Origin: Haliotis rufescens
Lineage: Eukaryota
NCBI RefSeq assembly: GCF_023055435.1
Contig: NW_025963791.1
Span: 33,232,001 to 33,296,000 of the forward strand
Length of the DNA: 64,000 nucleotides
Direction of reading: 5' to 3'
Shown here: positions 1 to 60,213 of the stretch, piece by piece
How positions within the stretch are numbered: position 1 is the stretch's first letter
How the letters are laid out: every line of letters starts with the position of its first letter
Position numbers and translations under genes: made by a program
The notes under the pieces: generated by a model
The model's input: the letters and a program-made list of their open reading frames with translations, nothing else
Told to the model about the DNA's origin: nothing
Databases searched by the model: none

Positions 1-2780
1 AGCGTGTGTCTATGTAATTGTTTATACTATTGTTGTAATAAAATATGTTCCTACATTATAGTTTTCATGAATTCTGTCATAAGAACAGGCTTGATCATTG
101 TTTCCACACAATAAGGATTTACCTTGAATAGATGAACCGAAACTGAATATATGAATGTATTGTGATCATGTGAGATGAGATTTGATGTCACTTTCACTCA
201 TTTAGATGAGGCGGTAAACTGTCGTCATTGATTCAAAGGCGCATTTGTTTTAATATTAAAAGCTAACTCTAAAACAACTACCAATAGGGTCTTGTATTAA
301 TGACCTGTAATCCACCTCCGTCAGCACCAACCAAGCCTTGCTTTACTGATAATGGACACGCCCCCTCACAGTCACAATACAAGGGAGGTAACTGTGAACG
401 TTAGTATTCAGGACGAAGTCAACATATCTTTATTGTGTCATTTTTACACGTCGACGAATGACTTTGTTGACCTGAATGTCAAACATTTGTAAAACCCATA
501 ACAATAAAAGAAATTTAAATCAATATACTTTACATTTTTCTATTTTCTTGGGGCCAACAATTCCTACTTTCGGTTTCTCTTCGTTTAATGTTTCGTGTGT
601 TTTGAAGTTTAAATTTAAGAAATACAAACCTTATGTAAGTTTGATGGTGTCGATGTCCTGAATAAACAGGTATACTAGTTCTTCATGTGCACTGTGTGAG
701 ACTTAATTGTATGACCTGGATGCCTTGAAATAACCAAATCCCGCCTCGGTACACACCTGTGCCTACCTGTCCCTTCCTCATGACATACAAGGGAGGTAAC
801 TGCGAAATCTCGACTAGTGGTGATTCATAAGCGATCAAATCTGATGGCAACGTAGGTTCCTGGATCGAATCAAGGATAATTCTTGTAACAACGCAAGAGA
901 TCGGCACATTTCAATATACACACACGGGACACACTGTAAACAGCATTTTTGTAATATCCTAAGATGTCCTACGCATTCGTATTTGTACAAGTATGTGCCA
1001 ACATGCATGTAATGTGGTTTGCAACAGAACAAGAAGTAAAAGGCTGCAACACCGGTTATGTGGCAGGTGTGGTGATCGACATGTCATAAATGTTACAAAT
1101 AAGAAATATACCACAGATAAAATAGCTTTTCCTGAAACTTAAAGCAAAATCATACCAGTATCACTAAGTAATGTTAACAGGCACACCGTTATGTAATGCA
1201 AGTCACTGCAAAAATGAAATAATCTTGAAAGTGATATTGGTCCCAATTTCACCTCATCTCCGGGGCTTAGTGTGTAATTATAGCATTGTATGCCATATTA
1301 CCACGGTAGTTAAATACTAATGGATCGTAACGGCGCACGCTTACAAACTTATAAAATATGTCATATGCAAAATGTTCCTTGTTCTTGGTTCAACTTTTAT
1401 GACACATCCATTAGGAATGATCGATGCTGATTTTCTTTACTGAGTTCGGTAAACAAAGTACCTGTCATTGGCGACACAAGGGCGGGCAGCTCTATATTAC
1501 CGAGGTATGGCTATGTTGTGGCGTGATCATGTGGCTTCACTTCCTTATTTGTATTATGCACAATCGGTATGCATACGACCTACGTTGGGGCAAAGGATTT
1601 CGTCTAAACAAATGGGTTCTTTTCTAATCAATTAGAATGGAGGCAGGGATATTTCCACTTCAAATACATTAAAGGAACAACCATGAAAAAGTTAAAGTGT
1701 GTATACGTGACATGCCACAACGAGTCCTGTATTCGATCATGCAATGAAATATCGTGTTTAGATTTGCATAAGTAAACAGTCGACATGAGTGTGGATTACG
1801 AGATTTACCGATACCGCAATAATATAGAGACCGCGATAATATAGAGTCATACCCTGTAATGATACCAGTCTCATTCAAATCTAATCCTCGTGCTCACTAC
1901 GGATTCATAGAGAGCACCAAGATCTCGTTTTAATGAGAGTGTAGTTACACCAGGTGTATGTTGACAGTTTCACAGCCACATGACTTCCTGGCTTGATATC
2001 TGAGTTGACCTTATTGCACAAGAGGCTGGGAGGATCACCAAGGAAGGCTATCTGGTGGTGACCTCGGACACAACGAGGAAGCAGGCTGACTGCATGGAGA
2101 AGATACCAGTATACAAGCCAAACTGAATATACCATTTGGTCCATTTTCTTAGCTATCTATCTATCAGATGCGTAGAAGCTGATATGGCGCAAGGGTTTGT
2201 GGATACATTTTGCTACTTTGTATGATGTTAAGTTTCTACTTATTCAAGGGTTTAATAAATTATTCAGTCAGCAAATCATATAAATAAGATATTGGAAAAT
2301 AAATATATAAATAAAATCCCATGTGGATTCTGGGTTAGAACAGAAAACCACAGTGAAAGAGACTACATGGATCGTGTGGTCATGCTTTTTGACATTCCTG
2401 ATTGCGTGTCATTGTGACAGCATGGGATGTTGCTCATAATATCCATCACTAGTTTGTGTGACCCAGTCTCTGTTACCAACATGCCTCTGTGAAAAAGCTG
2501 GACATATTGCTGAGTGTAGGGTTAATCATGTAACAAAGAAGCCATAGGGCGTGTAAGTTAGAATTGGTCCCCAGTAACCTGTTAGAAATAGGCGCCTGCA
2601 ATGGTTCGTTTGAAGTGTTGTGTCACCATAACCGGACATCATGGGACATTTGTCTCAATATCAACCATTGGTCTGTCTTGTCAAGACTAGCTTATCAATA
2701 GGCTCTCGGGATATAGATGGAACAACACACTCAGGTAAATGCAATCATGATTATGTATGTTTTATTGTGTTTAATGTCAC
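1..2780 (-). repeat. 5' flank/promoter block of a further TRIM paralog lying left of the window (copy 0)
   Basis: Colinear and highly similar to the upstream blocks of copy 1 (from ~13514), copy 2 (from ~21247) and copy 5 (from ~56956). All begin agcgtgtgtctatgta. Confidence 0.85.
566..579 (-). promoter_or_regulatory. IRF-element/ISRE-like motif GAGAAACCGAAAGT (copy 0)
   Basis: Matches the IRF consensus GAAANNGAAAG/CT and is kept in paralogous promoters. Confidence 0.55.
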
Positions 2781-10328: not shown

Positions 10329-11974
10329 TTAACACCAGTGATACCGATGATTGAAATCATGCAATTGTATCTGATCTCCACCACAAATATACAGTGTGTC
10401 ATGTCTATCGACATACAATCCCCTTGGATCACAGCCAATGTCCTGATGATCTGTGACATAATCCCCTGTCTCTGTCAGCCGTACCACATTGGGGCTGTCT
10501 GCAACCAGGATGTCTCCTGTTGAAGTAGTTGAGATACCGTAAGGTCTGAGTGCTCTGTCTCCGGTAGGGGCGTATCTCCACACAACATCCCCCTCTTACG
10601 TCACACATGTCACAGACTTCTTCCCCCAGTCAGACACGAGTATGTTGCCCTTGTTGTTGACACACATGTAGCCGGGGAAGGTAAACAGTGTCTCATTGTT
10701 GTGTGTAGTGACTGACCTCAGCATGTGTCCCGCCATGTCCAGGATATCAACACAGGCGACACCACCTGCTGCTAGAGATGAAGGACTCAGAACAGCGAGA
10801 CTGTAGTACTCCTTGCTTGTTGTGATGGTTGAGAGCAGCACCAGGTCAGGGGTCACTTCTACTGTTACAATCTGACTGGAGTCAGGGACAGCAACCATCA
10901 CCTGGTTCTCCTTCAACTGTGTTACACCACATGGATGGTCATCCAGGGGAAGTCTACTTTGACATGTCAAGTTGTTTCTGGTGTAGAAGGATTTCACACA
11001 CGTGTTATTTGCGTCAGTGACTACAACTGTCTGTATACCATCTACAAGGAGGACTGTGACGTCACGTAGATCAGGCTCCACTTCATCACCCGCCATCCTC
11101 CCATCTATCTGGTCAACCAGCACTGGAGACGGCAGACATGTGCCCTGATCCTGGTATGTGACGTCAATCTTCCCCAGCTGTAGGTCATCTAGGATGTGCT
11201 GGACGTTGTCAGTGTCAGGTGTAAACCTGATGTCATCTATTCTCGGTGTGTCTGCTGTGTCTGTGTCCCTGACATCCCCCAACTCTACAGCCCCCGACTC
11301 CCAGGCCTGATACGCGTCATACAGGTCCATCTCACAGTCCGATACCAAGGCCTGGTCAATGAACTCACAATGTTGTCTGTACATCTGCATTTCAATCTCT
11401 TGTAGTTTAACATCTGCTTTAAGTTGCTTAGTTTGTTTGTCTGTAATATCCCTGACTTTATTTATCAGCTGTTTTTCTTTCTGCTTGATGTTGGCGATGG
11501 CTCTCTCAACAGCAGATTTGATGTGACGTTCTACTCCAACTTTGTTTTTCTTAATTCTGCCAATTGTCTTGTTTGTTTTCTGAACAATTGTTTGTTTTTT
11601 ATGTACTTTCTTTGATAACTGTTCAGCATTTCTTCTCAAGTGGTATTTCATTGTTGGCATCATTGACTCTATGGTAATGACAGACTCACATTTCCTGTGG
11701 TAAATAACACAACATGTCTGACACACAGCTTTGTGGCAGTCTTTACATACAAGTTTTATAACCTCATCCTTATGTTCCCTGCACATGACCTTGCGTCCCC
11801 TCTTCACCTTGATCTCTCCTGAAAGGTCACAGATATCATGGTCATGTGATGCAGGACTTGCACGATGCATCTTGACACATCTTTCGCAGAGGGACACTTG
11901 ACACTTAGAACACCATGAGGCTCCCGGAGTTGTCTCCCCTAACTTCTCACACACTGAGCAACGTGAAGCGGAAC
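10329..11974 (-). pseudogene. TRIM copy 1 large exon (B-box x2, coiled coil, NHL-like propeller) with premature stop
   Basis: Acceptor ttacag|GTTCC at 11975/11974. TAA at 10598-10596 where paralogs have TCA (Ser), and the frame continues after it. A 30-bp deletion removes the native HEVNFM* end. May encode a C-terminally truncated protein. Confidence 0.85.
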
Positions 11975-12273
11975 CTGTAAGTGGACATGTCTATAGTTAT
12001 TTGACATATCATAACAATATTTATATAAATTAGAAGATTGAGAATCCAGGTAAAATCAACCCCTCTCACCTATTTTCAATGCACGAATAGGGCGATGGGT
12101 GTAGGCTTGGAGTTCAAGTGTTGGCTCGTCACGCCCGTGGGTTTGATGTGTGAAGCCCCATATTGGCATGATTGGCAGTGGCGTAAAACTGAACTCATTC
12201 ACCCAGTTATGTACATGTAGTTTCAACAGCTACAGTTACTCTTACAAGTGAACAGTTTTGATCACGATTTTCA

Positions 12274-12425: not shown

Positions 12426-12835
12426 TATCATCAACCTGAAACATTCTATCATTTACAAATACCCTTTTGATAAACTGCTATTTGTAGATGTTTTCAAATA
12501 ATAATTTTTTCAAGTGCTTTATGGATGATCTGATTATATAAGCATCATGTAAACCGATAATAATCAGCAGGTCAATTAGCATTGCCGATGCACATCGTCC
12601 CGACGTCATAATATATTGTAAATATTTCTATGCAGTGATTACAGTTGGAGTCATGTTTGTAACAAATGTATATTTTCTGGTTTCGTTTAGTGGAGTCAGT
12701 TGGTATCATTGAATATTCTGTTAACAGCAGTACTGTAATTATACTGCATGTTTAAACAAATAATGATTATGATTCTCATTACTAGATATCAGTTTGTGAA
12801 ATGAATGTGCAATTCATAATGTAATAAACCAATAC

Positions 12836-13133
12836 CTGTTTTGACAACGTCAGCTTGAGTGTCAATCAGCCCCTGTATAATGATGCTGGGTTTGATCTGC
12901 CCCGCCCACTCCTCCACTGGCCGGCTGGGGTGGGGGACCTTGGTATCTTGTCGACAGAAGGCACAGGGGATCGTCTTGGACTGTATAGCATCTGGTCTTG
13001 TTTGGATGTATGCAGTGACACATTTCCTGCAGAATGTGTGATCACACCTCAGTGTACAGGGGTCTGTGTACAGTTCCTGGCAGATCACACAGGTGAGGAA
13101 TTCTGTAACTTTCTCAGCTCGTGACGTCGCCAT
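12836..13133 (-). CDS. TRIM copy 1 RING (C3HC4) exon, first coding exon
   Basis: MATS..CVIC..C.H.FC..C..C..C. Acceptor tttacag directly before the ATG and donor CAG|GTATT. 298 nt, phase 1, in frame with the large exon. Confidence 0.9.
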
Positions 13134-13261
13134 CTGTAAAACATAAATAACTGTTCACTTTTCCAAGAAATAATTTCAGCTGAAGTTGTTCCGTCTTTGT
13201 TATGGGGTAACATGTGTTTAGTTTGAGGCAATAACATCTCTTGAGTGCACTTCGGGCTTAC

Positions 13262-13900
13262 CTTCTATATCAAGCTGACACGCGACGATATAACTGAAAT
13301 ACTGTATAACGCGGCATAACACCAAAAGCACTCACCCCGTCAGTAACTTGTGTGCACCACTAAGTATGCTGAAACGCCTCTGTAAATCCATGTCGAATGA
13401 GTTATTTACATATCGTATCTTGTCACAAAAGTAACCATATCGACCAATCCATAGTGCTACAGGAATAACAGATGCTACACAGCGTGACTTCATGTCAAAC
13501 AAGGTGTTTCAGAAGCGTGTGTCTATGTATTTGTTTATACTATTGTTTCAATAAATTATGTTCCTTCATTATAGTTTTTTATGAATTCTGTCATAAGAAC
13601 AAGCTCGATCGTTGTTTCCACACAATAAAGGATTTACCTTGAATAGATGAACCGAAACTGAATATATGAATGAATTGTGATCATGTGAGATGAGATTTGA
13701 TGTCAACTTCTCTCATGTAGATGAGGCGGTAAACTGTCGTCACTGATTCAAAGGCGCATTTGTTTTTATATTAAAAGCTAACTTTAAAACAACTACCAAT
13801 AGGGTCCTGTATTGATGACCTGTAATCCACCTCCGTCAACACCAACCAAGCCTTGCTTTACTGATAATGGACACGCCCCCTCACAGTCACAATACAAGGG
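13262..13900 (-). promoter_or_regulatory. Putative 5' UTR exons and proximal promoter of TRIM copy 1
   Basis: Donor-like sites AAG|GTAAGC (13262/13261) and AAG|GTAAAT (13638/13637), both kept even in the divergent copy 3. GC-box-like CACGCCCCC at ~13872 and CCAAT at ~13796. No transcript evidence. Confidence 0.45.
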
Positions 13901-14081
13901 AGGTAACTGTGAACGTTAGTATTCAGGACCAAGTCAACATATCTTTATTGTGTCATTTTTACACGTCGACGAATGACTGTGTTTACCTGAATATCAAACA
14001 TTTGTAAAACCAATAACAATAAAAGAAATTTAAATCAATATACTTTACATTTTTTTATTACCTTTGGGGCCAACAATTCCT

Positions 14082-14095
14082 ACTTTCGGTTTCTC
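14082..14095 (-). promoter_or_regulatory. IRF-element/ISRE-like motif (copy 1)
   Basis: GAGAAACCGAAAGT on the gene strand. Confidence 0.55.
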
Positions 14096-16567
14096 TTCGT
14101 TTAATGTTTCGTGTGTTTTTAAGTTTAAATTTAAGAAACACAAACCTTATGTAAGTTTGATGCTGTCGATGTCCTGAATAAACAGGTATACTAGTTCTTC
14201 ATGTGCACTGTGTGAGATTTAATTGTACGTCCTGGATGCCTTGAAAAAACAAATCCCGCCTCGGTACACACCTGTGCCTACCTGTCCCTTCCGCATGACA
14301 TACAAGGGAGGTAACTGCGAAATCTCGACTAGTGGTGATTCATAAGCGATCAAATCTGATGGCAACGTAGGTTCCTGGATCGAATCAAGGATAATTCTTG
14401 TAACAAAGCAAGAGATCGGCACATTTCAATATACACACACGGGACACACTGTAAACAGCATTTTTGTAATATCCTAAGATGTCCTACGCATTCGTATTTG
14501 TACAATTATGTGCCAACATGCATGTAATGTGGTTTGCAGCAGAACAAGAAGTAAAAGGCTGCAACACCGGTTATGTGGCAGGTGTGGTGATCGACATGTA
14601 ATAAATGTTACAACTAAGAAATATACCACAGATAAAATAGCTTTTCCTGAAACGTAAAGCAAAATCATACCAATATCACTAAGTAATGTTAACGGGCACA
14701 CCGTTATGTAATGCAAGTCACTGCAAAAATGAAATAATCTTGAAAGTGATATTGGTCCCTATTTCACCTCATCTCCGGGGCTTAGTGTGTAATTATAGAA
14801 TTGTATGCCATATTACCGCGGTAGTTAATTTATAATGTATCGTAACGACGCACGCTTACAAACTTATTAAATATGTCATACCCAAAAATTTCCTTGTTCT
14901 TTGTTCAACTTTTATGACACATCCATTAGGAATGATCGATGCTGAGTTTCGTTACCGAGTTCGGTAAACAAAGTACCTGTCATTGGCGACACATGGGCGG
15001 CAGCTCTATATTACCGAGGTATGGCTATGTTGTGGCGTGATACATGTGGATCATGTGGCTTCACTTCCTGATTTGTATTATGCACAATCGGTATGCATAC
15101 GACCTACGTTGGGTCAAGGGATTTCGTCTAAACAAATGGGTTCTTTTCTAATCAATTAGAATGGAGGCAGGGGTATTTCCACTTCAAATACATTCAAGAA
15201 ACTACCATGAAAAAGTTAAAGTGTGTATCCGTGACATACTACAACGAGTCCTGTATTCGATCATGCGATGAAATATCGTGCTTAGATTTGCATAAGTAAA
15301 CAGTCGACATGAGTGTGGATTACGAGACTTACTGATACCGCAATAATATAGGGCCCGCGATAATATAGAGTCATATCCTGTAATGATACCAGCCTCATTC
15401 AAATCCAACCCTCGTGCTCGCTACAGGTTCATAAAGAGCACAAAGATCTGGTTTTAATGAGAGTGTAGTGACACCAGGTGTATGTTGAGAGATTCACAGC
15501 CACATGACGTCCTGGCTTGATATCTGAGTTGACCTTATTACACAGGAGGCTGGGCGGATCACCAAGGGAGTCTATCTGGTAGTGACCTCGGACACAACGA
15601 GGAAGCAGATGTTGAACCAGGCTGACTGCATGGAGAAGATACCAGTGTACAAGCCAAACTGAAAATACCATTTTGTCCATTTTCTCAGCTATCTATCTAT
15701 CAGATGCGTTGAGGCTGATATGGCGCAAGGGTTTGTGGATACATTTTGCTTCTTTGTGTGATGTTTAGTTTCTACTTATTCAAGGGTTTAATAAATTATT
15801 CAGTCAGCAAATCATATAAATTAAATGTTGGAAAATAAATATATAAATAAATTCCCATGTGGATTCTGGGTTAGAACAGAAGGCCACAGTGAAAGAGACT
15901 ACATGGATCGTGTGGTCATGCTTTTTGACATTCTTGATTGCGTGTCATTGTGACAGCATGGGGTGTTGCTCATAATATCACTAGTTTGTCTGACCCAGTC
16001 GCTGTTACCAACAGGCCTCTGTGAAATAGCTGGACATTTTGCTGAGGGCAGGGTCAATCATGTAACAAAGAAGCCATAGTGTGTGTGGGTTAGAATTGGT
16101 CCCTAGTAACCTAGCGACTGCAATAGATCGTTTGACGTGTTGTGTCACCATAACCGGACATCATGAGACATTTGTCCCAATATCAACCATTGGTCTGTCT
16201 TGTCCAGACTAGCTTATCAATAGCCTCTCAGGATATAGATGGAACAACATACTCAAGTAAATGCAATCATGATTATGTGTGTTTTATTGTGTCTAATGTC
16301 ACACTCAGAAATATTCCAGCTATTTGATGTGGACTTGTAACTAAGTGATTGATATTGTGAGCAATGATCCACTCCAACAGGGTACATGAAACACAACAAA
16401 TCAAGTAACAGAGCCTGACCACTCGGTCCCTATGGTCGCCTTTTACAACCAGCATACGTTACTGAGGATATATTCTAACCTGGGATCCCTGTTGGGATCA
16501 ACAATGTCATTTGAATTGCCCAACTTATGATGAAATATGTAGGACTCAAGCAAATATGATTGTTTGT

Positions 16568-18031: not shown

Positions 18032-19659
18032 CTACATGAAGTTGACTTCGTGTATCTGACCGTCTTCACACACATACATTGTGTCATGTCTATCTACATA
18101 CAATCCATATGGATCACAGCCAATGTCTTTATGATCTGTGACATAATCCCCTGTCTCTGTCAGCTGTACAACATTGTTGGTGTCTGCAACCAGGATGTCT
18201 CCTGTTGGAGTAGTTGAGATACCATAAGGGGTGAGTGCTCTGTCTCCAGTAGGGGCGTATCTCCACACAACATCCCCCTCTGACGTCACACATGTCACAG
18301 ACTCCTCATCCCAGTCAGACACGAGTATGTTACCCTTGTTGTTGACACAAATGTACCAGGGGTAGGAGAACAGTGTCTCGTTGTTGTGTGTAGTGACTGA
18401 CTTCAGCACGTGTCCCGCCATGTCCAGGATATCAACACAGTCATATGTACCTGCTGCTAGAGATGAAGGACTCAGAACAGCGAGACTGTAGTAGTCCTTG
18501 CTTGTTGTGATGATAGAGAGCAGCACCAGGTCAGGGGTCACTTCTACAGTTACAATCTGACTGGAGCCAGGGACAGTAACCATCACCTGGTTCTCCTTCA
18601 ACTGTGTTACACCACGTGGAAAGTTATCCAGGGGAAGTTTACTGTGGCATATCAAGTTGTTTCTTGTGTACAAAGATTTCACACACTCGTTCTCCATGTC
18701 AGTGACTACAACTGTCTGTATACCATCTACAACCAGGACTGTGACGTTACGTAGATCAGGCTCCATTTCATCGCCCGCCATCTTCCCATCTATCGTGTCA
18801 ACCAGCACTGGAGATGGCAGACATGTGCCCTGATCCTGGTATGTGACGTCAATCTTCCCCAGCTGTAGGTCATCTAGAGTGTGCTGGACGTTGTCAGTGT
18901 CAGGTGTGAACCAGATGTCGTCTATTCTCCGTGTGTCTGCTGTGTCTTTGTCCCTGACATCCCCCAGCTCTACAGCCCCCGACTCCCAGGCCTGATAGGC
19001 GTCATACAGGTCCATCTCACAGTCCGATACCAAGGCCTGGTCAATGAACTCACAATGTTGTCTGTACATCTGCATCTCAATCTCTTCAAGTTTAACAACT
19101 GCTTTAAGTTCCTTAGTTTGTTTGTCTGTAATATCCTTGACTTCGTTCATCAGTTGTTTTCCTTTCTGCTTGATGTTGGCGATGGCTCTCTCAACAGCAC
19201 ATTTAATGTGATTTTCTACTGCTATTTTGTTTTTCTCAATTCCGCTAATTTTCTCGTCTGTTTTCTTAACAATTGTTTCTTTTCTATGTATTTTCTTTGA
19301 TAACTGTTTAGCATGCCTTCTTAAATAGTATTTCAAGTTTGGCAACATTAACTGAATGGTAACGACAGACTCACATTTTCTATGGTAAACAACACAACAT
19401 GTCTGACACACAGCTTTGTGGCAGTCTTTACATACAAGTTTTATAGCCTCATCCTTATGTTCCCTGCATATGACCTTGCGCCTCCTCTTCACCTTTACCT
19501 CCCTTGAAAGGTCACAGATCTCATGGTCATGTGATGATGGACTTGCACGATGTATCTTGACACATCTTTCGCAGAGGGACACTTGACACTCAGAACACCA
19601 TGAGGCTCCCGGAGTTGTCTCCCCTAACTTCTCACACACGGAGCAACATGAAGCGGAAC
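18032..19659 (-). CDS. TRIM copy 2 large exon: B-box1, B-box2, coiled coil, NHL-like beta-propeller (641 aa with the RING exon)
   Basis: Open frame. CxxC...CxxC....C..C...H....H B-box1 and CREH...CKDC...CQTC...H B-box2. Repeated PxG / ILVSD blades. Canonical acceptor. Confidence 0.92.
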
Positions 19660-20563
19660 CTGTAAGTGGACATATCTATAGTTATTTGACATATCATGAG
19701 AATATTTATATAAATTAGAAGATTGAGAATCCAGATAAAATCACCCCCTCTCACCTATTTTCAATCCACGAATAGGGCGATGGGTGTAGGCTTTGAGTTT
19801 AAGTGTTGGCTCGTCACGCCCGTGGGTTTGATGTGTGAAGCCCCATATTGGCATAATTAACAGTGGCGTAAAACTGAACTCATTCACCCAGTTATGTACA
19901 TGTAGTTTCAACAGGTGCAATTGCACTTACAAGTGAACAGTTTCGATCACGATTTTCACGGGCGGTAGTGAAGCCTTGTGGTTTAAGTGTTAGCCAGGTT
20001 TGATTCCCTACATGAGTAAAATGTGTGAAGCCCATTTCTTGTGTCCCCCGCAATGATATCGCTGGAACATTGCTGAAGGTGGCAAAAATACATACTCACT
20101 CACTCACTCACTCACTCACTCACTCACTATTATCAACCTGAAACATTCTATCATTACTAATACCCTTTTCATAAATTGCCATTTGTTGATGTTTTCAGAT
20201 AATAATATTTTCAAGTGCTTTATGGATGATCTGATTATATAAGCATCATGTAAACCGATAATAATCAGCAGGTCAATTAGCATTGCCAGTGCACATTGCC
20301 CCGACGTCAAAATATATTGTAAATATGTCTTTGCCGTGAGTACAGTTAGAGTCATGTTTGTAACAAATGTATATTTTCTGGTGTCGTTTAGTGGAGTTAA
20401 TTGGTATCATTGAACATACTGTGAACAGCAATACTGTAATTATACTGTATGTTTAAACAAATAACGAGTACCCTTTAACATGCTTTCATTACAAACATGA
20501 TTCTTATTACTAGATTTCAGTTTGTGAAATGAATGTGTAGTTCATAATGTAATAAACTAATAC

Positions 20564-20861: not shown

Positions 20862-21814
20862 CTGTAAAACATAAATAACTGTTCACTTTTCGTAGAAATA
20901 ATTTCAGCTGAAGTCGTTCCGTTTTTGTAATAGCGTTACATGTGTTTTGTTTGAGACAATACAATACAATTTCTTGAAGCGACTTCGGGCTTACCTTCCA
21001 TATCAAGCTGACACACGATGATATAACTGAAATACTGCATTAAGCGGCATAACACCAAACACACTCAACCCGTCAGTAACTTGTGTGCACCACTAAGTAT
21101 GCTGAAACGCCTCTGTAAATCCATGTCGAATGAGTCGTTAACATATCATTTCTTGTGACAAAAATGACCATATCGACCAATCCATAGTGCTACAGGAATA
21201 ACAGATTCTACATATCGTGACTTCATGTCAAACAAGGTGTTTCAGAAGCGTGTGTCTATGTATTTGTTTATACTATTGTTTCAATAAAACATGTTCCTAC
21301 ATTATAGTTTTTTATAAATTCTGTCATAAGAACAAGTTCGATCGATGTTTCCACACAATAAAAGATTTACCTTGAATAGATGAACCGAAACTGAATATAT
21401 GAATGTATAGTGATCATGTGAGATGAGATTTGATGTCAACTTCACTCATGTAGATGTGGCAGTAAACTGTCGTCATTGATTCAAATGCGCATTTGTTTTT
21501 ATATTAAAAGCTAACTTTAAAACAACTACCAATAGGGTCTTGTATTGATGACCTGTAATCCACCTCCGTCAACACCAACCAAGCCTTGCTTTACTGATAA
21601 TGGACACGCCCCCCTCACAGTCACAATACAAGGGAGGTAACTGTGAACGTTAGTATTCAGGACCAAGTCAACATATCTTTATTGTGTCATTTTTACACGT
21701 CGACGAATGACATTGTTTCCCAGAATGTCAAACATTTGTAAAACCCATAACAATAAAAGAAATTTAAATCAATATACTCTACATTTTTCTATTTTCTTGG
21801 GGCCAACAATTCCT

Positions 21815-21828
21815 ACTTTCAGTTTCTC
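21815..21828 (-). promoter_or_regulatory. IRF-element/ISRE-like motif (copy 2) GAGAAACTGAAAGT
   Basis: The variant base falls in the spacer, so the consensus is kept. Confidence 0.55.
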
Positions 21829-24800
21829 TTCGTTTAATGTTTCGTGTGTTTTTAAGTTTAAATTTAAGAAATACAAACCTTATATAAGTTTGATGCTGTC
21901 GATGTTCTGAATAAACAGGTATACTAGTTCTTCATGTGCACTGTGTGAGATTGAATTGTACGTCCTGGATGCCTTTAAATAACCAAATCCCGCCTCGGTT
22001 CACGGCTGTGCCTGTCCCTTCCGCATGAAATACAAGGGAGGTAACTGCGAAATCTCGACTAGTGGTGATTCATAAGCGATCAAATCTGATGACAACGTAG
22101 GTTCCTGGATCGAATCAAGGATGATTCTTGTAACAACGCAAGAGATCGGCATATTTCAATATACACACACGGGACACACTGTAAACAGCATTTTTGTAAT
22201 ATCCTAAGATGTCCTACGCATTCGTATTTGTACAATCATGTGCCAAAATGCATGTAATGTGGTTTGCAGCAGAACAAGAAGTAAAAGGTTGGAACAGCGG
22301 TTATGTGGCAGGTGTGGTGATCGACATGTCATAAATGTTCCAAAAAAGAAATATACCACAGATAAAATAACTTTCCTGAAACGTAAAGCAAAATCATACC
22401 AATATCACTAAGTAATGTTAACGTGCACACCGTCATGTAATGCAAGTCACTGCAAAAATGAAATAATCTTGAAAGTGATATTGGTCCCTATATTTTCACC
22501 TCATCTCCGGGGCTTAGTGTGTAATTATAGCATGGTACGATATATTATCGCGGTAGTCAAATTATAATGGATGGTAATGGCGCACGCTTACAAACTTATT
22601 AAATATGTCATACACAAAATGCTTGTTCTTTGTTCACCTTTTATGACACATCAATTAGGATTGATCGATGCTGATTGTCTTTACTGAGTTCGGTAAACAA
22701 ATTACCTGTCATTGGCGACACAAGGGCGGGCAGCTCTGTATTACCGAGGTATGGCTATGTTGTGGCGTGATACATGTGGATCATGTGGCTTCACTTCCTG
22801 ATTTGTATTATGCACAATCGGTATGCATACAACCTACGTTGGGTCAAGGGACTTCGTCCAAACAAATGGGTTCTTTTCTAATCAATTAGAATGGAGGCAG
22901 GGGGTATTTCCACTTTAAATACATTCAAGAAACTACCATGAAAAAGTTAAAGTGTGTATACGTGACATACTACAACGAGTCCTGTATTCGATCATGCGAT
23001 GAAATATCGTGCTTAGATTTGCATAAGTAAACAGTCGACATGAGTGTGGATTACGAGACTTACTGATACCGCAATAATATAGGGCCCGCGATAATATAGA
23101 GTCATATCCTGTAATGATACCAGCCTCATTCAAATCCAACCCTCGTGCTCGCTACAGGTTCATAAAGAGCACAAAGATCTGGTTTTAATGAGAGTGTAGT
23201 GACACCAGGTGTATGTTGAGAGATTCACAGCCACATGACGTCCTGGCTTGATATCTGAGTTGACCTTATTACACAGGAGGCTGGGCGGATCACCAAGGGA
23301 GTCTATCTGGTAGTGACCTCGGACACAACGAGGAAGCAGATGTTGAACCAGGCTGACTGCATGGAGAAGATACCAGTGTACAAGCCAAACTGAAAATACC
23401 ATTTTGTCCATTTTCTCAGCTATCTATCTATCAGATGCGTTGAGGCTGATATGGCGCAAGGGTTTGTGGATACATTTTGCTTCTTTGTGTGATGTTTAGT
23501 TTCTACTTATTCAAGGGTTTAATAAATTATTCAGTCAGCAAATCATATAAATTAAATGTTGGAAAATAAATATATAAATAAATTCCCATGTGGATTCTGG
23601 GTTAGAACAGAAGGCCACAGTGAAAGAGACTACATGGATCGTGTGGTCATGCTTTTTGACATTCTTGATTGCGTGTCATTGTGACAGCATGGGGTGTTGC
23701 TCATAATATCACTTGTTTGTCTGACCCAGTCGCTGTTACCAACAGGCCTCTGTGAAATAGCTGGACATTTTGCTGAGGGCAGGGTCAATCATGTAACAAA
23801 GAAGCCATAGTGTGTGTGGGTTAGAATTGGTCCCTAGTAACCTAGCGACTGCAATAGATCGTTTGACGTGTTGTGTCACCATAACCGGACATCATGAGAC
23901 ATTTGTCCCAATATCAACCATTGGTCTGTCTTGTCCAGACTAGCTTATCAATAGCCTCTCAGGATATAGATGGAACAACATACTCAAGTAAATGCAATCA
24001 TGATTATGTGTGTTTTATTGTGTCTAATGTCACACTCAGAAATATTCCAGCTATTTGATGTGGACTTGTAACTAAGTGATTGATATTGTGAGCAATGATC
24101 CACTCCAACAGGGTACATGAAACACAACAAATCAAGTAACAGAGCCTGACCACTCGGTCCCTATGGTCGCCTTTTACAACCAGCATACGTTACTGAGGAT
24201 ATATTCTAACCTGGGATCCCTGTTGGGATCAACAATGTCATTTGAATTGCCCAACTTATGATGAAATATGTAGGACTCAAGCAAATATGATTGTTTGTTG
24301 ACAAATTGTTGTTGAGGGCTGCACTCAGCATTATTCCAGCTATGTCTGTAATTAATTGAGTCTGGGCCAGACAATCCAGGGATTGACATCATGAGCATCT
24401 ACCATGCAAGTCAGTGAGCCTGACCACCCGATCCCGTTAGTCGCCTCTTAAGACAAGCATAGCCACCTTTTACAGCAAGCATGGGTTGCTGAAGACCTAT
24501 TCTACCCCTGAAATTCATGGGTACAAACAAATACGAATGGCCCAAGCATTTAACCTATGGAAAGAATGGAAAGGTTTCAATCCTGTCTGCATCTAATATT
24601 TACGAACTGCTGTAAAAAGCTGGAATTTTGGTAACTGCTGTGGAATTCAGTATTCACTCAAGCCTATGTGAGTAATTAACTGGACATTTTGACTGGTGCA
24701 TGTTTCAGAATGGCCAAGGCAAAGCAGGCTGTGTTGAGGGAGAAGAAACAACACACCCTCAAGAAACAACATCGCCAGACTCCATGTGTGGGCAGTTCAT

Positions 24801-27849: not shown

Positions 27850-28780
27850 TAAGCTTTGGCCGGACTTACGAAAGTTGAGTATGTCTTGTCCCAGAGAGGT
27901 GCCCCACAAGTTCTCCTAGAAGGCTACACGTTCGCTAAGAACAGGACGAAGAATGAAAATGTGTACTGGAGGTGTGTGAACAGATCTTGCAGTGGCAAGT
28001 GCACCACAGTCAGAGACTACGTTCGCGGCACGTCAGAACACAACCATCCACCTAGTGATGACCGAGCAGTGAGATTTGTCAACGCCATAAGGAAGAAGGG
28101 CATGGAAGAGACAACACCTATGCAGCAAATCTACAACGACCTCATCAGCCAACAGGAGGACGACTTGGTGCCGCATCAAGAGCTGAGGTAGACCTTCCAG
28201 ATCAGTGGACAGCGACACAAGATGGAAGAAGATTCCTGTTGTTTGCTGACGGAGAGGACGACAAGATACTGGCGTACTGCTCCGACGAGGCTCTTGAAGC
28301 ACTGCAGTCCGCAGATAAAATCTTCATAGATGGAACATTCTCTACCTGCCCTCTTCTGTGAAACCAAGTATACATTATTCACGCGATGTCAGGTTCCACA
28401 ATGTACCCTCTGGTCTACACACTCCTTCCAGATCGCCAGAGAGCTACATACACCAGACTCTTCAACCTCCTCAAGACCAAGGTTCAGCAGACCCTCGGCC
28501 GACCCCTAGCTCTATCTGTCATCCAAACAGACTTCGAACTTGCTGCCATTCAAGCTGCCGAGACTGCATTTCCTCAGAATGATGTCAAAGGCGGTCTATT
28601 CCATTTCTGTCAGGCAATATGGCGCAAAACACAAGAACTAGGACTTGCAGTTGCATACAAAGAAGATGTGGAGGTTCGCAAGTGGATACGACGAGCTGTA
28701 GGTCTGGCATTGCTGCCCCTTCTCGAGGTCCAAGATGCCTGGCTTGAAGCCATGAACCAGTGCCCCGACGTGCGCCAATC
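27850..28780 (+). mobile_element. Degenerate MULE (Mutator-like) transposase with FLYWCH zinc finger
   Basis: SQRG...YWRC...C...HNH (FLYWCH). DGTFSTCP, YPLVYTLLP, TDFELA and FHFCQAIWRK (MULE DDE domain). Stops and frameshifts. Confidence 0.85.
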
Positions 28781-29847
28781 TGATAGTTATATACTGCAGG
28801 GATAATTTTAAGCGGTGTTGTGCAAGCGAAGGCTCATCGGCCTCCACATACAAACTAGGTACAGGAGAGGTTCTAAATGATCCAAGACAGAGTCTCAGTC
28901 CTTGATGATGTATGCTATCTAATTTCCCTAAATTACTTTGAGCAGCTCCAGCATATACAATTGAACCATAATCTAGCTTAGATCTAATAAGGGATCTATA
29001 CAGGTGAAGTAAGATTGTCTGATCCCCACGCCACTTAGTATTTGCAACAACCTTTAGTAGATCCGGAACCTTCAAGCATTTAGTTTTAAGATATTTTATA
29101 TGAGGTTAAAATGTCAAATGGCGATCAAAAATAAGACCCAAGAACTTGGTCTCCTCAACAACCTTGATGGGGGCACCGTTTAACAGTAGTTCTGGGTCTT
29201 TATGCGGTCTATAATTTCAACAAAAATGGATACAATTTGTCTTTGCTTTTGAAAATCTAAAACCATTCTCAAGCAACCACTTTTGGATTTTATTTAGGCA
29301 AAGCTGCAGTTGCCTTACTATTGTGTGCATGTTTTTGCCACGACAAGATATGTTGAAGTCATCTACACAGTGTGACCCATCAATTGAGTCATTCAATGCC
29401 TTAGAGAGACTGTTAATTTTAATGCCGAATAATGTGACACCATACTGCCTTGTGGGACACCCTGATCCTGATTGTAATGGTGAGACAGGTTGAACCCACA
29501 CGGACTTGAAATTGTCTGTCGGTTAAAAAACTGGATATAAACCAAGGGAAACGACCCCACAATCCAAAATCATGAAGATCTCTTAAAATGCCATGCTTCC
29601 TAGTTGTATCATAAGCTTTTTCGTAATCGTAAAAAAATGGATACAGCATTTTGTTTGTTTATAATGGAATTCTTATGAACGATTCTAAACGTACCAGATG
29701 ATCAATGGTACTTCTATTTTCCCGGAAACCACATTGTATATCTGTGATGAGATGATTGGTTTCCAAATACCAAACTAATCGATTGTTCACCATACGCTCT
29801 ATAGTTTTGCAAATGCAACTGGTAAAAGATATAGGACGGTTATTAGA

Positions 29848-31272: not shown

Positions 31273-32470
31273 TATACTGAACCAAATTAAAAACTTCACA
31301 ATCCTAAAATTTTAACATTTTGACCAGTTATCATTGTGGGCCCATATTGTGTATTTAAACAGAAATGGCCACGTATTGTCTTCAGATAACACCCGTTTTT
31401 GTGCAGGTGAATCGATCAAAATCATGTGCACAGCACTATAGTGGCAAAAGTGTTTTTTCACGTGCAACTGGTCACGTGGCCATAATACCGTACATGTTTT
31501 CAGCCAAACTTGTTAGCAGTCATTAAAAAAACAAAAAAAACACAAGAAGGCTTTACGGCCATTTGTCATGCCACGCCTTTCTAATGTGCAACGTGAACGT
31601 GCCATCGGCATGTTGCAGACGGGAACGTCCGTAGCTGAAGTCGCAAGGACGATTGGTTGTAGTCGACGGACTGTTTATGATTTACAGACGCGTCTACAGC
31701 AAACGGGTACCACCACTGATCGCCCTCGGCCAGGTCGACCACGTGTGACGTCACATGCAGAAGATCGTCAGATTGTCTTACGGCACCTCCGTAACTGATT
31801 TTTGACGGCTACATCAACCAGAAATGAACTGTTTAGGGGTAGACTGAGTGCGCAAACTGTTCACAACTGTCTGAGAACTGCTCACCTTCAAGCACGACGG
31901 CCATACTGCGGGCCGATTCTGACTCAATTACACAGACGTCAACGTCAATTGTGGGCACAGCAACACGTACGATGAACTCAGGGGAATTGGAATCAAGCCG
32001 TCTTCATTGATGAATCCCGATTTAATCTTCGATTTGCTGATGGTAGGTCGCCGTCATGAACGTTACGCCCAGTGTTGTGTACAGGAAGTTGACAGATTTC
32101 GAGGCGGAAGTGTCATGGTGTGGGGTGCTTTCTGTGGCAATGCACGTTCCAGGCTTTTTGTCATCCGTGGCAACCTCAACGCTGATGCTTACCGCGACCA
32201 GGTACTGGCACCAGAACTTCTGCCTTTTATGGCAGCTCATGGACCCGGTTTGATCTTCCAACACGACAATGCCAGACCCCACACAGCAATTTTGACAAGG
32301 AATTTCCTTCAGAATGTGGGAGTCAACGTCATGGACTGGCCGTCAAGGTCTCCCGACCTCAATCCCATCGAACACGTCTGGGATGCTCTTGGCAGAAGTC
32401 CGCGCACTCTCCAGAACCAACCACAGTATTTGCAAGATCTTGGCACCATTTTGCAGCAACAATGGCAGAT
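31273..32470 (+). mobile_element. Degenerate Tc1-like (DD34E) transposon, 3'-truncated
   Basis: HTH MPRLS...GRPRVTS, FIDESRF, FQHDNARPH and WPSRSPDLNPIEHVW. Premature stops and a frameshift. Starts at a TA. Confidence 0.88.
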
Positions 32471-33739
32471 TAAACATGTTACATTTCCTGACATCACATT
32501 TATCTGTGTTCTTAAGATAGGTTTCTTGTGAACACAAAGCTGATGGTTTAGAATCTTGAATTAAAAGCTGTAAATCATGAAAATTATTTCTATATCCTCT
32601 ACAATTCCATCAAAGTATGTTGGACGATTGAGTCATGGTGGCTCAATCTGCGAACGCTCACGTACACGTGAGGAGGAAGGACTCCTACTTCTGCTCTGTG
32701 ACGATGGTGTTACATCCATGTCCAGAGCATCAAAGGCGTTATGAACAATTATCTCTGAAGATGAGGAGTTCCTGGTTGTCTGATTTCTATTAAGTGTTTT
32801 TCTTTTTCTTTCTTTTCTGGTCAAAGGTTGCATGTCTGGTTCTACAGCATCAGATTCTTTAGTGACAAGCACTTCAGCATCAGACACCGTATTGTCTAGT
32901 TCAGAGAGATTCCATCAGGATACTAGCATCTTAGACTATCAATAGTGTACATCTATACGCATGCGCGGCGTGAGTCCCAGTAAGCCGTCAGCCTGTACAG
33001 ACGTCTCTTAGTATATCAGTAAACAGTGATTAACCAAACCCCGCGTTCGTTATGCAGTTATCAGCTGATACGACAACCTGAGAACATTACAACTGTAATC
33101 ATAGACTTTTTTTATTTGTGGAAAAAATACATTTTGCTCGTGCTGTGTGCAAATGATATTTTTAAATGAACCTATGATTAAGTATGTAACACAAAACAAA
33201 GTAAAACTAATTCATTGAAGTTTTCATTCATCGATTTTATTTGAACTGGAGTCACGGACATATCACGGGCTAGACACTGCGAATTCAAAGCACGTCTCGC
33301 AGGCAGTTCGCTGGTGGGCGTGGGCTAATTTCTATTTATTGTGTCTATAGACGTACACACTTAAAATTCTGGTGTGCATACTTTGCATCAGTCTGCATAT
33401 AAAGTGTGCACCTCCAAAACACAAAAATATATCTCACTCCATAAATGAGTCAACAAAAATAACTTCATACGCTGCTTTGTTAGTCATCAACACAAACCAC
33501 TGTAGACCATACAACATCTGATTTGTTTTACTGGAGCCCAAGCAAAAAGCCCGATATACGTATAAAACGATCTGGTCATGCATACACTGAAGTTGTTTGA
33601 GGCTTTATCTTTACTCAAACATATAGACGTCAGAAGGAATGTGTGCATAGTCAGAAAGAAATGCGAACATTAGAGATTTGTAGTTTTTTTTAACCATGGA
33701 GTTTTATTGTCATTGTCGTTTAACAATATACCCCGTGAC

Positions 33740-56574: not shown

Positions 56575-57519
56575 CTGTAAAACATAAATAACTGTTCACT
56601 TTTCGTAGAAATAATTTCAGCTGAAGTTGTTCCGTCTTTGTAATGGAGTAGCATGTGTTTTGTTTGAGACGATAACATTTCTTGAGTGCGACTTCGGGCT
56701 TACCTTCCATATCAAGCTGACACACGATGATATAACTGAAATACTGCATAACGCGGCATAACACTAAACGCACTCACCCCGTCAGTAACTTGTGTGCACC
56801 ACTAAGTATGCTGAAACGACTCTGTAAATCCATGTCGAATGAGTCGTTAACATATCATTTCTTGTAACAGAAATGACCATATCGACCAATCCATAGTGCT
56901 ACAGGAATAACAGATTCTACATATCGTGACTTCATGTCAAACAAGGTGTTTCAGAAGCGTGTGTCTATGTATTTGTTTATACTATTGTTTCAATAAAATA
57001 TGTTCCTACATTAGAGTTTTCATGAATTCTGTCATAAGAACAGGCTTGATCATTGTTTCCACACTATAAAGGATTTACCTTGAATAGATGAACCGAAACT
57101 GAATATATGAATGTATTGTGATCATGTGAGATTAGGATTGATGTCAACTTCCCTCGTGTAGATGTGGAGGTAAACTGTCGTCATTGTTTGAAATGTGCAT
57201 TTGTTTTCATATTAAAAGCTAACTTTAAAACAACTACCAATAGGGTCCTGTATTTATGACCTGTAATCCACCTCCGTCAACACCAACCAGGCCTTGATTT
57301 ATTGGTAATAGACACGCCCCCTCACAGTCACAATACAAGGGAGGTAACTGTGAACGTTAGTATTCAGGACCAAGTCAACATATCTCTATTCTGTCATTTT
57401 CACTTCGACGAATGACTTTGTTTACCTGAATCTCAAACATTTGTAAAACCCATAACAATAAAAGAAATTTAAATCAATATACTTTATATTCTTTTATTAC
57501 CTTGGGGCCAACAATTCCT

Positions 57520-57533
57520 ACTTTCGGTTTCTC
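57520..57533 (-). promoter_or_regulatory. IRF-element/ISRE-like motif (copy 5)
   Basis: GAGAAACCGAAAGT on the gene strand. Confidence 0.55.
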
Positions 57534-60213
57534 TTCGTTTAATGTTTCGTGTGTTTTTAAGTTTAAATTTAAGAAACACAAACCTGATATAAGTTTGATG
57601 CTGCCGATGTCCTGAATAAACAGGTATACTAGTTCTTCATGTGCACTGTGTGAGATTTAATTGTACGTCCTGGATGCCTTGAAATAACCAAACCCCGCCT
57701 CGGTACAGACCTGTGCCTACCTGTCCCTTCCCTTCCGCATGACATACAAGGGAGGTAACTGCGAAATCTCGACTAGTGGTGATTCAAAAGCGATCAAATC
57801 TGATGACGACATAGGTTCCAGGATCGAATTAAGGATGATTCTTATAACGTCGAAAGAGATCGCACATTTCAATATATACACACACAGTACACATTGTAAA
57901 CAGTATTTATGTAATATCCTAAGATGTTTTACACATTCGTATTTGTACAATTATGTGCGAACATGTATACATGTAATGTCGTTTATAGCAGTACAAGAAG
58001 TAAAAAGTTGGACAAGCTATATGGCAGGTGTGGCGATCGAGATGTCATAGATGTTACAAATAAGAAATATACCACAGATACAATAACTTTCTTGAAACGT
58101 AAATAACAATGTTACCAGTATTTCAAAGTAATCCGAACGGGCAAATCAACACACCGTCATGTAAACATCTTGAGCCCGAGAAACATGTAGGTGTTACACC
58201 AGTCTTACACCAGCAGGATTCCTGTGGCCTCCGTGTGTTACAAAAAATAAATAAAAAAAGTCATGTATACTGTTGTGGTCAGAAGCATCAGATCACAAAT
58301 CGAAGTCACGGAGTGTAATGTTAGTATCAGATATGTTCACTGCATGCTGAATAATCTCTTGTTTCGTTTTACTTGAACACAAAACCTGCATATGTGGCAC
58401 GTGCGATACGCTACAGGTAATCTCTTACTTGTTTCCCTCAGTACGTATGATTACTGATGTTAAGCCTCTGATTATAGCATGGTAGCATTTACTGATTTCA
58501 ATACACGAGATTTAACGTATATATTTACGTGTTTTACTATTCCTTCATGATTTATTGATGTAATGATACATGGCCCTGATCGCGTTTGGATCTGTGCGAT
58601 GAAGGAATATCCCTATTTACTTCTACAGGGCGGTGTTCTTTTCCATATATCTATTGAGATAGTGTCATCTCTATGAGTAGGTATATGCTGGCTGAATGAG
58701 TATTTATCTCACGATAGGCTGCATTTACAATCACAAATTTACACTTGAGTCTGTGAGTGAAGAATGTACCCCAATGGGGACGTTACTATTGACATCTCAT
58801 TGATCAACCTTCGATGGACAGCTGTGTTTCAAAACTTGTTGATAAATATAACTATGGATTTATGCTGTATGTGTTGAATACTGATATCCTATTTCAATAT
58901 CTCCTATGACCCTACATAAAAACAACTGTACGCTCATTTATATATGTGTGAGACTGGATGAAACATGAAACGAAACAGCTGAGAAGCTAGCTTAAATTAA
59001 TTGTTTGTTTTAGTTGGCAACATGAATTCTTATATCAACCAAATAAGGATTGTAAAAGCATTCAAAAATTTGTCTTCATTAATCCTGCATTCGCCGCATT
59101 CAGCAATATTCCGACTATATGACGGCGGCCTGTAAACAATCCAGTCTGGACCAGACAATCCAGTTATTGACATAATGAGCATCGACCCACGTCATTGGGA
59201 TACGATGATATTTATCAAGCAATTAGCCTGACCTGAGATTACGAGGCCTGCACTGTGTCACCAGTGTATATCTGGAGAGATAGTGACGCTGTGAACTATA
59301 ACAGTTTTGTGCATGTGGTTGCCAGCTGTGTCCTGTGTCATGTCATATTTGGTATCATGATCCCATTAACGTGCGAATGGTCAGCGAGCAGGTACAACCT
59401 TTAATCTCCATACATCGATTCAATATCTGCTTCATCTGTAACCTATAGACGAAAGTTTCTTCCCGATATGTGGATAATCATATCGACAAACATGGCTGTA
59501 AATCACCATATGATAAATGGGACACTTCACTCAAACACTATATTCATACACGGTTTCTGAAGCTGAGTGAGATCAGGTTGAAAAATTGAACATCATTGAT
59601 CGAGATTATTGTAAAAATGACATGTCAGGGTAAAAAGATTACCCTCGTGTGATTCCGAATCGTAAAGATCAAATATGAGGAATGTGTTGTATGCTCGTTA
59701 CAGGGTCGAACAATTCAACTTTTATTCTATAAATTTTGATATTTATGATACGGAAACACACTCATGTATTATCCTCTACAAGCGTTTTGTTGTGTTTGTT
59801 GTTGAACGCCACACCCAGAACTGTTCCAGTTATATGACGGCGATCTGTACATTATCGCGTCTGGACCAAACAAGGTTGTGACTGACATCAGGAGCATCGA
59901 TCTAGGTAATGAGGACACGATGACATGACACAATACGACAAGCATTGATTGCCGAAGACCCATTCTAACCCGGATCTTCATGGGGAACACATATATGCAT
60001 GTGTTAGCTATACATGTCATCATATACTGGTACAAATCAACTTCTTATACAGGAATTGTTAATGCGAGGTCATTTTTGTGAAAATATTTTGCATAAATGT
60101 TACAGCATCCAATGCTGGCATGACAGATTGCGTTGAACTGACAGTGTTTTGTGTTTTAAAATACAGATTCAAGTAAACTCCATAAGTTACTTTTTATCCT
60201 AGTAAAACCTGCT

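What the first reader, a model, noticed from the sequence alone, without database searches (positions are those of the whole stretch)
13161..15180. IRF/ISRE-like, GAS-like and kB-like motifs in the TRIM 5' regions
Seen: GAGAAAC(C/T)GAAAGT about 950 bp upstream of the ATG in copies 1, 2 and 5 (14082, 21815, 57520) and at the equivalent position in copy 0 (566). A second near-ISRE GAACCGAAACTG lies at 13649-13660. TTCN3GAA sits just upstream of the ATG exon, where only the N positions differ (TTCCAAGAA 13161 and 48962; TTCGTAGAA 20889 and 56602). GGG(A/G)TATTTCC-type motifs lie at 1646, 15170 and 22901. Established: these match IRF, STAT and NF-kB consensus sites, and molluscs have IRF/STAT antiviral signalling. 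Inference: the array is made of interferon-like stimulated genes. Conservation among recent duplicates is weak evidence on its own.
Basis: partly seen in the sequence, partly recalled or inferred. Interest (0 to 1): 0.7.

Follow-up and report, generated by a model that had tools for sequence, protein, structure and literature searches.

The report
Antiviral IRF switch in abalone TRIMs
A large cluster of abalone TRIM ubiquitin-ligase genes carries a conserved IRF-type DNA site just inside the first intron, the same kind of site found near abalone Mx, viperin and other antiviral-type genes, so these TRIMs are likely switched on by virus sensing, whereas the STAT and NF-kB look-alike sites appear to be chance.

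Summary
The genes are Haliotis RING–B-box–coiled-coil–NHL TRIMs. Transcript-like contigs join a non-coding exon 1 to the ATG exon, so GAGAAACCGAAAGT (14082-14095) sits about 50 nt inside intron 1, not in the upstream promoter. It survives as a 19-nt identical island in a paralogue clade 3 Mb away, whose surrounding DNA barely aligns (B-box/coiled-coil dS about 0.8). Perfect IRF sites occur in 34 of 76 cluster copies, all one inherited site, and in 0 of 29 other TRIMs. The same site class lies 5' of Mx-like (4 of 7 copies), viperin, IFI6/27-like, DTX3L-like and tandem-CARD genes, and of a distant TRIM. The second near-ISRE, the GAS and the kB motif are no better conserved than their flanks; GAS and kB counts are at chance level. 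Against: within closer clades the site is only modestly conserved and was lost several times, it is not enriched genome-wide, the blind test was weak (2 of 20 against 0 of 12), and induction was not measured. Verdict: likely a real IRF element marking a finTRIM-like, virus-inducible family; not an IRF+STAT+NF-kB module.

The parts
14080..14098 (-). IRF element of copy 1 (core GAAACCGAAAGT 14082-14093; extended 19-nt footprint), about 50 nt into intron 1
564..582 (-). Same IRF element in copy 0
21813..21831 (-). Same IRF element in copy 2 (spacer CT)
57518..57536 (-). Same IRF element in copy 5
14146..14324 (-). Non-coding exon 1 of copy 1 (donor at 14145 from the joint; 5' end approximate, contig cover reaches about 14324 in one run and about 14375 in another)
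   Evidence: donor conserved in paralogues
13134..14145 (-). Intron 1 (GT..AG, 1012 nt), holding the IRF element, the near-ISRE and the GAS look-alike
14303..14319 (-). Conserved island CGCAGTTACCTCCCTTG near the inferred start of exon 1; likely a core-promoter or initiator-like element (a second copy lies at 13895-13909)
14377..14387 (-). Short conserved upstream island TGATTCGATCC, function unknown
12834..13133 (-). ATG/RING exon of copy 1 (3' end approximate)
   Evidence: (RING shown on the copy 2 equivalent)
10596..11990 (-). B-box/coiled-coil/NHL exon frame of copy 1, ended early by an in-frame stop
13649..13660 (+).
13161..13169 (.).
15170..15180 (+).

Best explanation
The GAGAAACCGAAAGT site in intron 1 is likely a functional IRF-binding element that would let abalone IRFs switch on part of this TRIM-NHL gene cluster when virus-derived nucleic acid is sensed. 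Shown: a non-coding exon 1 is joined to the ATG exon, the site lies about 50 nt past its donor and roughly 230 nt from a conserved promoter-like island, and both islands are kept across deeply diverged paralogue promoters. Inferred: RLR/MAVS or cGAS/STING signalling activates the IRF1/2-like or IRF4/8-like factor; it binds the tandem GAAA repeats and co-induces these E3 ligases with Mx, viperin, IFI27-like, DTX3L-like and RIG-I-like genes. The diversifying NHL propellers would then pick out targets for the conserved RING. Copies that lost the site are predicted to be non-inducible, differently regulated or decaying. The GAS, kB and second ISRE look-alikes are passengers of recent duplication.
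For: Footprint: between the window clade and the clade at C13:30.3-30.55 Mb, 5' DNA aligns at 0.54-0.64 identity against 0.53-0.61 for shuffles (3 pairs) and B-box/coiled-coil dS is 0.77-0.89. Yet 22 of 23 nt at the site match, and the only shared words of 14 nt or more belong to this site or the promoter-like island. P(19 of 19 identical) at a named place is 1e-6 to 2e-5. 7 of 7 RING-defined copies of that clade keep a perfect site. Motif identity is 0.977 against 0.901 for flanks in 28 alignable copies. Perfect sites occur in 34 of 76 cluster copies, all in one orientation, and in 0 of 29 other TRIMs. The genome rate is 3.6 per Mb, so P is about 0.004 for a 1-kb intron. Pre-named controls: Mx-like 4 of 7 perfect (one more with 1 mismatch) against 0 of 10 other dynamin-family loci; viperin has a perfect site about 1 kb upstream and a 1-mismatch site beside a GAS and a TATA. 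Sites also lie 5' of IFI6/27-like, Macro+RING+DTC and nSTAND3-ankyrin arrays, and of a second Macro+DTC gene, two CARD genes and a distant TRIM. Two IRF genes keep the recognition-helix sequence (helix assignment recalled). Oyster IRFs activate ISRE reporters (PMC5557890, passages) and oyster TRIMs are among antiviral-regulated families (PMC7064767, passages).
Against: No induction, binding or reporter data. In the tree-aware test over the closer clades the 12-nt core has 18 changes against a median of 31.5, and 14.6% of intron windows are as conserved; the site is degraded or deleted in several lineages. The 34 copies are one inherited site, not 34 tests. IRF words are not enriched genome-wide (729 against 783, 4832 against 5229, 234 against 208). 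The blind sample gave 2 of 20 ISG-like loci against 0 of 12 controls (Fisher p=0.52). Neither IRF gene has a perfect site within 25 kb upstream. RING and NHL exons show much lower dS (0.16-0.34) than B-box/coiled-coil between the same clades, so gene conversion acts here and could in principle copy a short patch. The splice joint rests on 26-30 nt on its short side, below the tool's 31-nt bar, in runs only guessed to be RNA. Allowing any of 2400 windows, the footprint's expected count rises to 0.002-0.06.
Confidence: 0.65

Rival explanations
1. The site is a real conserved element but serves basal or developmental expression: it is bound constitutively by IRF1/2 or by another GAAA-reading factor such as Blimp-1/PRDM1, or it helps splice intron 1. 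The TRIMs are then not virus-inducible.
For: Conservation shows function, not inducibility. The site travels with a promoter-like island that is even better conserved. The array is covered by contigs in all RNA-guessed runs laid, whose treatment is unknown. Overlap of PRDM1 and IRF motifs is recalled knowledge.
Against: The same site class sits at Mx-like, viperin, IFI27-like, DTX3L-like and CARD genes, and not at other dynamin-family loci. The CC/CT spacer fits IRF better than PRDM1 (recalled).
Confidence: 0.2
2. The site is a chance IRF-like word in the ancestral intron, spread by tandem duplication and kept identical between clades by short gene-conversion tracts.
For: Conservation inside the closer clades is modest and losses are repeated. 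The dS mosaic points to conversion. There is no genome-wide enrichment.
Against: The flanks of the island are at or near shuffle-level identity, which leaves little homology to seed conversion. Island order and spacing are kept in several clades. A distant TRIM (31 of 78 RING residues identical) has the same word.
Confidence: 0.12
3. One reading: a composite IRF + STAT + NF-kB module drives the whole array.
For: All motifs exist; kB-like words lie about 2 kb upstream in many young copies.
Against: GAS and kB are at chance frequency, no better conserved than flanks, and absent from diverged clades. The near-ISRE is lost in all 11 diverged alignable copies.
Confidence: 0.03

Closest known systems
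Vertebrate IRF-E/ISRE in interferon-stimulated genes (consensus recalled)
   Same: Tandem GAAA repeats with a 2-nt spacer, near the transcription start, shared with Mx-like, viperin, IFI27-like, DTX3L-like and CARD genes of the same genome.
   Different: Gastropod host; intronic position; binding untested. Molluscs are not known to have IRF9/STAT2 (recalled), so an IRF1/2- or IRF4/8-like factor is the likely reader rather than ISGF3.
Teleost finTRIM/btr expansions (PMC13030082, passages read)
   Same: Lineage-specific tandem expansion of RBCC E3 ligases with a faster-evolving C-terminal domain, linked to antiviral induction; paralogue-specific ISRE presence is reported for salmonid ISGs in the same review.
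   Different: C-terminal NHL propeller instead of PRY/SPRY (B30.2), and not orthologous. Induction is shown in fish and only inferred here. NHL dN/dS is 0.55-0.85 pairwise, not above 1.
Oyster and scallop IRF-ISRE system (PMC5557890, PMC13524488, PMC5869526; passages read)
   Same: Mollusc IRF1/2- and IRF8-like factors bind or activate ISRE; TRIM families respond to poly(I:C) or OsHV-1 in oyster (PMC7064767; bioRxiv 10.64898/2026.05.15.723513; passages).
   Different: The passages read describe mammalian reporters or one cytokine promoter in bivalves; here native, footprinted sites are seen across several effector families of a gastropod.
TRIM-NHL class (TRIM2/3/32/71, wech; TRIM56-like labels)
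   Same: RING, two B-boxes, coiled coil, NHL repeats.
   Different: Close relatives listed are all Haliotis; at least 80 RING exons on one contig; two coding exons.

Membership tests
IRF element (IRF-E/ISRE) | Match to tandem GAAA consensus GAAASYGAAASY | tested here: met
   Perfect match at 14082-14093; consensus recalled
IRF element (IRF-E/ISRE) | Close to the transcription start | tested here: met
   About 50 nt into intron 1 and about 230 nt from the approximate start of exon 1; start not mapped, joint rests on 26-30 nt
IRF element (IRF-E/ISRE) | Conserved above flanking DNA | tested here: met
   Met between deep clades and by identity; only modest within closer clades
IRF element (IRF-E/ISRE) | Cognate IRF encoded in the genome | tested here: met
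   Two IRF loci
IRF element (IRF-E/ISRE) | Bound by IRF and needed for induction | not testable with these tools
   Needs EMSA, CUT&Tag or reporters
IRF element (second site, 13649) | Consensus match and conservation | tested here: not met
   Imperfect match; identity 0.885 against 0.903 for flanks; lost in all 11 diverged copies
GAS (STAT site) | Above chance and conserved | tested here: not met
   15 against 18.4 expected; identity 0.833 against 0.888; 20 of 76 copies
kB site | Above chance and conserved | tested here: not met
   5 against 3.4 expected; identity 0.961 against 0.949 in 8 young copies only
Interferon-stimulated (virus-inducible) gene | Induced by dsRNA, virus or an interferon-like cytokine | not testable with these tools
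   Only contigs of unlabelled runs could be laid; the poly(I:C) tables of PMC12882144 are on Figshare and were not seen
TRIM-NHL | RING + B-boxes + coiled coil + NHL | tested here: met
   Pfam RING, B-box and NHL hits; coiled coil read from the sequence, not computed
finTRIM | C-terminal B30.2/PRY-SPRY domain, teleost lineage | tested here: not met
   NHL, not B30.2; Haliotis. It works like a finTRIM at most

The most novel reading that the evidence does not exclude
Abalone has a native IRF regulon readable from its genome. One word class (GAAASYGAAAS followed by TAG) marks Mx, IFI27-like, DTX3L-like, RIG-I-like and nSTAND3-ankyrin genes and at least two separate TRIM lineages. The TRIM-NHL cluster is then an independently evolved invertebrate counterpart of fish finTRIMs, in which copies gain or lose virus inducibility by keeping or losing one intronic site.
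Probability: 0.45. Interest if true: 0.72.

Novelty: new member of a known kind. Interest (0 to 1): 0.5.

Why it matters
Molluscs mount an interferon-like response, but in the passages read, evidence that their IRFs drive native effector genes comes mostly from mammalian reporters. A footprinted native site, shared by known antiviral homologues and by an uncharacterised family of several dozen TRIM-NHL ligases, gives a direct test of which genes a gastropod IRF controls. Copies with and without the site form a built-in control. It also offers candidate resistance loci against abalone herpesvirus, and a motif-based way to nominate new invertebrate antiviral genes (for example the nSTAND3-ankyrin array).

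Tried and rejected
No RNA holder is listed on record for the stretch; the contigs laid cannot give expression level, strand or start, and run treatments are unknown, so induction was not testable. Cross-species conservation could not be tested: no relatives' genomes are offered, and the difference tables are truncated. Genome-wide enrichment of IRF words over reversed controls: none. The shared 3' TAG extension was noticed after the fact; its blind test gave 2 of 20 against 0 of 12, not significant, with only 145 of 280 top-ranked ORFs sent to Pfam. IRF autoregulation: no perfect site at either IRF gene. The three exact 14-mer hits at C1:7.41-7.45 Mb and four singletons had no identifiable gene (not Pfam-scanned). 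Link between site loss and pseudogenes: the four RING exons with stops lack a perfect site, but copy 1 keeps the site and has a stop; not tested further. Positive selection on NHL: pairwise dN/dS stays below 1. Two HaHV-1 abalone papers name no TRIM or IRF gene in the main text (PMC6520846, PMC11851962; term look-ups); their supplements were not read and may bear on induction. Rejected: GAS, kB, second ISRE, the 'upstream promoter' placement and finTRIM membership. No protein fold or complex was run, since none bears on a DNA motif.

Full report
Observation. All motifs are at the stated coordinates. The genes are minus-strand TRIMs with a RING exon and one large B-box/coiled-coil/NHL exon; close homologues are labelled Haliotis. 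The window lies at G000:C13:33232001-33296000, in a cluster with at least 80 related RING exons on that contig. TTCN3GAA (15 seen, 18.4 expected) and the kB pattern (5 seen, 3.4 expected) are at chance level in the window. A perfect GAAASYGAAASY occurs 4832 times in 1.33 Gb, so P is about 0.004 for a 1-kb intron.

Gene structure. Each ATG follows a splice acceptor directly. Contigs join 13133 to 14146 with CT..AC ends in 5 of 7 distinct runs laid: 4 of 4, and 2 of 4, one of them a repeat. The joint is absent in one RNA-guessed run and in a run of unknown type that covers every bin. The short side is only 26-30 nt, the runs are only guessed to be RNA, and contigs may come from paralogues. The donor is conserved among copies. 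Exon cover runs from 14146 to about 14324-14375. So the main site is about 50 nt inside intron 1, the near-ISRE is mid-intron, the GAS is 28 nt before the acceptor, and only the kB motif is upstream.

Conservation. I scored 105 RING-anchored upstream regions, 2.3-3.5 kb each, after skipping 16 duplicate or non-TRIM loci; one further locus had no RING hit. A perfect IRF site is present in 34 of 76 cluster copies, always in the same orientation, and in 0 of 29 other TRIMs, whose first exons may lie further out. These 34 descend from one site. In 28 alignable copies the motif is 0.977 identical against 0.901 for flanks. A tree-aware count on 34 sequences (8 dropped for not covering the region) is weaker: 18 changes against a median of 31.5, with 14.6% of intron windows as low (5% for the 14-mer), and several lineages have degraded the site. 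The strongest evidence is the clade at 30.3-30.55 Mb. All 7 of its RING-defined copies keep the site. Its 5' DNA aligns to the window clade at or near shuffle level (3 pairs; z 2.2-3.8 between the islands, none beyond the site), and B-box/coiled-coil dS is 0.77-0.89. Even so, 22 of 23 nt at the site match, in the same order and at similar spacing as a second island at 14303-14319 near the inferred start. The chance of 19 identical bases at a named place is 1e-6 to 2e-5; anywhere in 2400 windows the expected count is 0.002-0.06. RING and NHL show lower dS between the same clades, so conversion acts in this family and is the main caveat. The near-ISRE (0.885 against 0.903; lost in 11 of 11 diverged copies), the GAS (0.833 against 0.888; 20 of 76 copies) and the kB motif (0.961 against 0.949; 8 young copies) show no such signal.

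Does the genome use IRF sites at antiviral genes? Families named beforehand: Mx-like dynamins (identity judged from the sequence, not from a tree) have a perfect site 3.1-5.6 kb upstream of the GTPase exon in 4 of 7 copies, and one more has 1 mismatch. This compares with 0 of 10 other dynamin-family loci; the Mx copies are not independent, and some control anchors are internal exons. Viperin has a perfect site about 1 kb upstream and a 1-mismatch site beside a GAS and a TATA box. Neither of the two IRF genes has a perfect site within 25 kb; both keep the recognition-helix sequence (assignment recalled). Of 8 tandem site clusters picked by hand, the genes were IFI6/27-like, Macro+RING+Deltex-C (DTX3L-like), nSTAND3-ankyrin, Ig-domain and EGF-repeat, with 3 unidentified. 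A refined word ending in TAG, noticed after the fact, is not enriched genome-wide (234 against 208). Its first 20 unexamined loci gave 2 ISG-like genes (Macro+Deltex-C; tandem CARD) against 0 of 12 shifted controls (p=0.52). Eight further loci, four of them hand-picked, gave a multi-CARD array and a distant TRIM (31 of 78 RING residues identical) carrying the same word twice. Most genomic matches are therefore noise, but several separate antiviral-type families carry the site near their 5' ends.

Mechanism. Shown: the position, the footprint and the co-occurrence with antiviral homologues. Inferred: nucleic-acid sensing activates an abalone IRF, which binds the intronic GAAA repeats and induces the site-bearing TRIMs. 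NHL domains vary faster (pairwise dN/dS 0.55-0.85) than RING (0.13-0.43), as expected if they select targets. Confidence 0.65. Rivals: a basal or other-factor role (0.2), chance plus conversion (0.12), the full IRF+STAT+kB module (0.03).

Known context. Oyster IRF2 and IRF8 activate ISRE reporters (PMC5557890, passages). Scallop and oyster IRF1 bind ISRE (PMC13524488, passages; PMC5869526, passages). TRIM families are among antiviral-regulated genes in oyster (PMC7064767 and bioRxiv 10.64898/2026.05.15.723513, passages). Fish finTRIMs are the closest analogue but carry B30.2 (PMC13030082, passages). Searches for abalone+ISRE, gastropod IRF sites, mollusc TRIM-NHL expansion and related terms (listings only) showed no paper on native IRF sites in abalone TRIMs. 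Subscription journals, where much abalone immunology appears, are not covered, and no supplements were read. PMC12882144 (part 1 of 2 read) offers the poly(I:C) data needed for the decisive test. Earlier scan notes report conversion and broken copies in other abalone TRIM arrays; they were used as leads only.

Verdict. Observation confirmed; interpretation partly supported. One likely real IRF element in intron 1; three look-alikes rejected. A new member of a known kind, interest 0.5.

Noticed in passing
window 14303-14319 and 13895-13909 (-): The island CAGTTACCTCCCTTG is the best-conserved non-coding word across four clades and occurs twice per gene unit; initiator-, MYB- or RFX-like by recall.
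   Followed up: partly
window 10596-10598 and RING exon of copy 4 near 48750: Copy 1 has an in-frame stop in the NHL region. Copy 4 has a stop in the RING exon, and its upstream DNA is replaced beyond about 49217, removing exon 1 and the IRF site.
   Followed up: partly
window 18032-19675 against L049: Mosaic divergence between clades: dS 0.77-0.89 in B-box/coiled coil but 0.16-0.34 in RING and NHL, suggesting domain-wise gene conversion.
   Followed up: partly
window 60214-60786 (-): Fucosyltransferase (Glyco_transf_10) exon interleaved with the TRIM array; a database protein fuses both (P0004), possibly an annotation artefact.
   Followed up: no
L121-L124 (G000:C2:23.5-23.9 Mb): Ten tandem IRF sites; the one copy examined lies 5' of an 1813-aa nSTAND3-ankyrin frame, a candidate uncharacterised antiviral family.
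   Followed up: partly
L150-L156 (G000:C13:29.75-29.92 Mb; C157): Mx-like array of five copies about 0.4 Mb from the deepest TRIM clade, with double or triple GAAA repeats upstream.
   Followed up: partly
L141 (G000:C598:277039-278093): Viperin upstream region with a near-IRF site, a GAS and a TATA box in close order, plus a perfect IRF site; the best candidate for a real GAS seen here.
   Followed up: partly
L199 (G000:C35:37.81 Mb): Distant TRIM with two inverted copies of the IRF word about 1 kb apart.
   Followed up: partly
window 27853-28805 and 31923-32531: MULE (FLYWCH + transposase) and Tc1-like DDE remnants, plus LINE fragments, between TRIM copies.
   Followed up: no
L054-L056 (G000:C1:7.41-7.45 Mb): Three tandem units share about 19 nt with the TRIM IRF element, but no gene was identified nearby.
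   Followed up: partly
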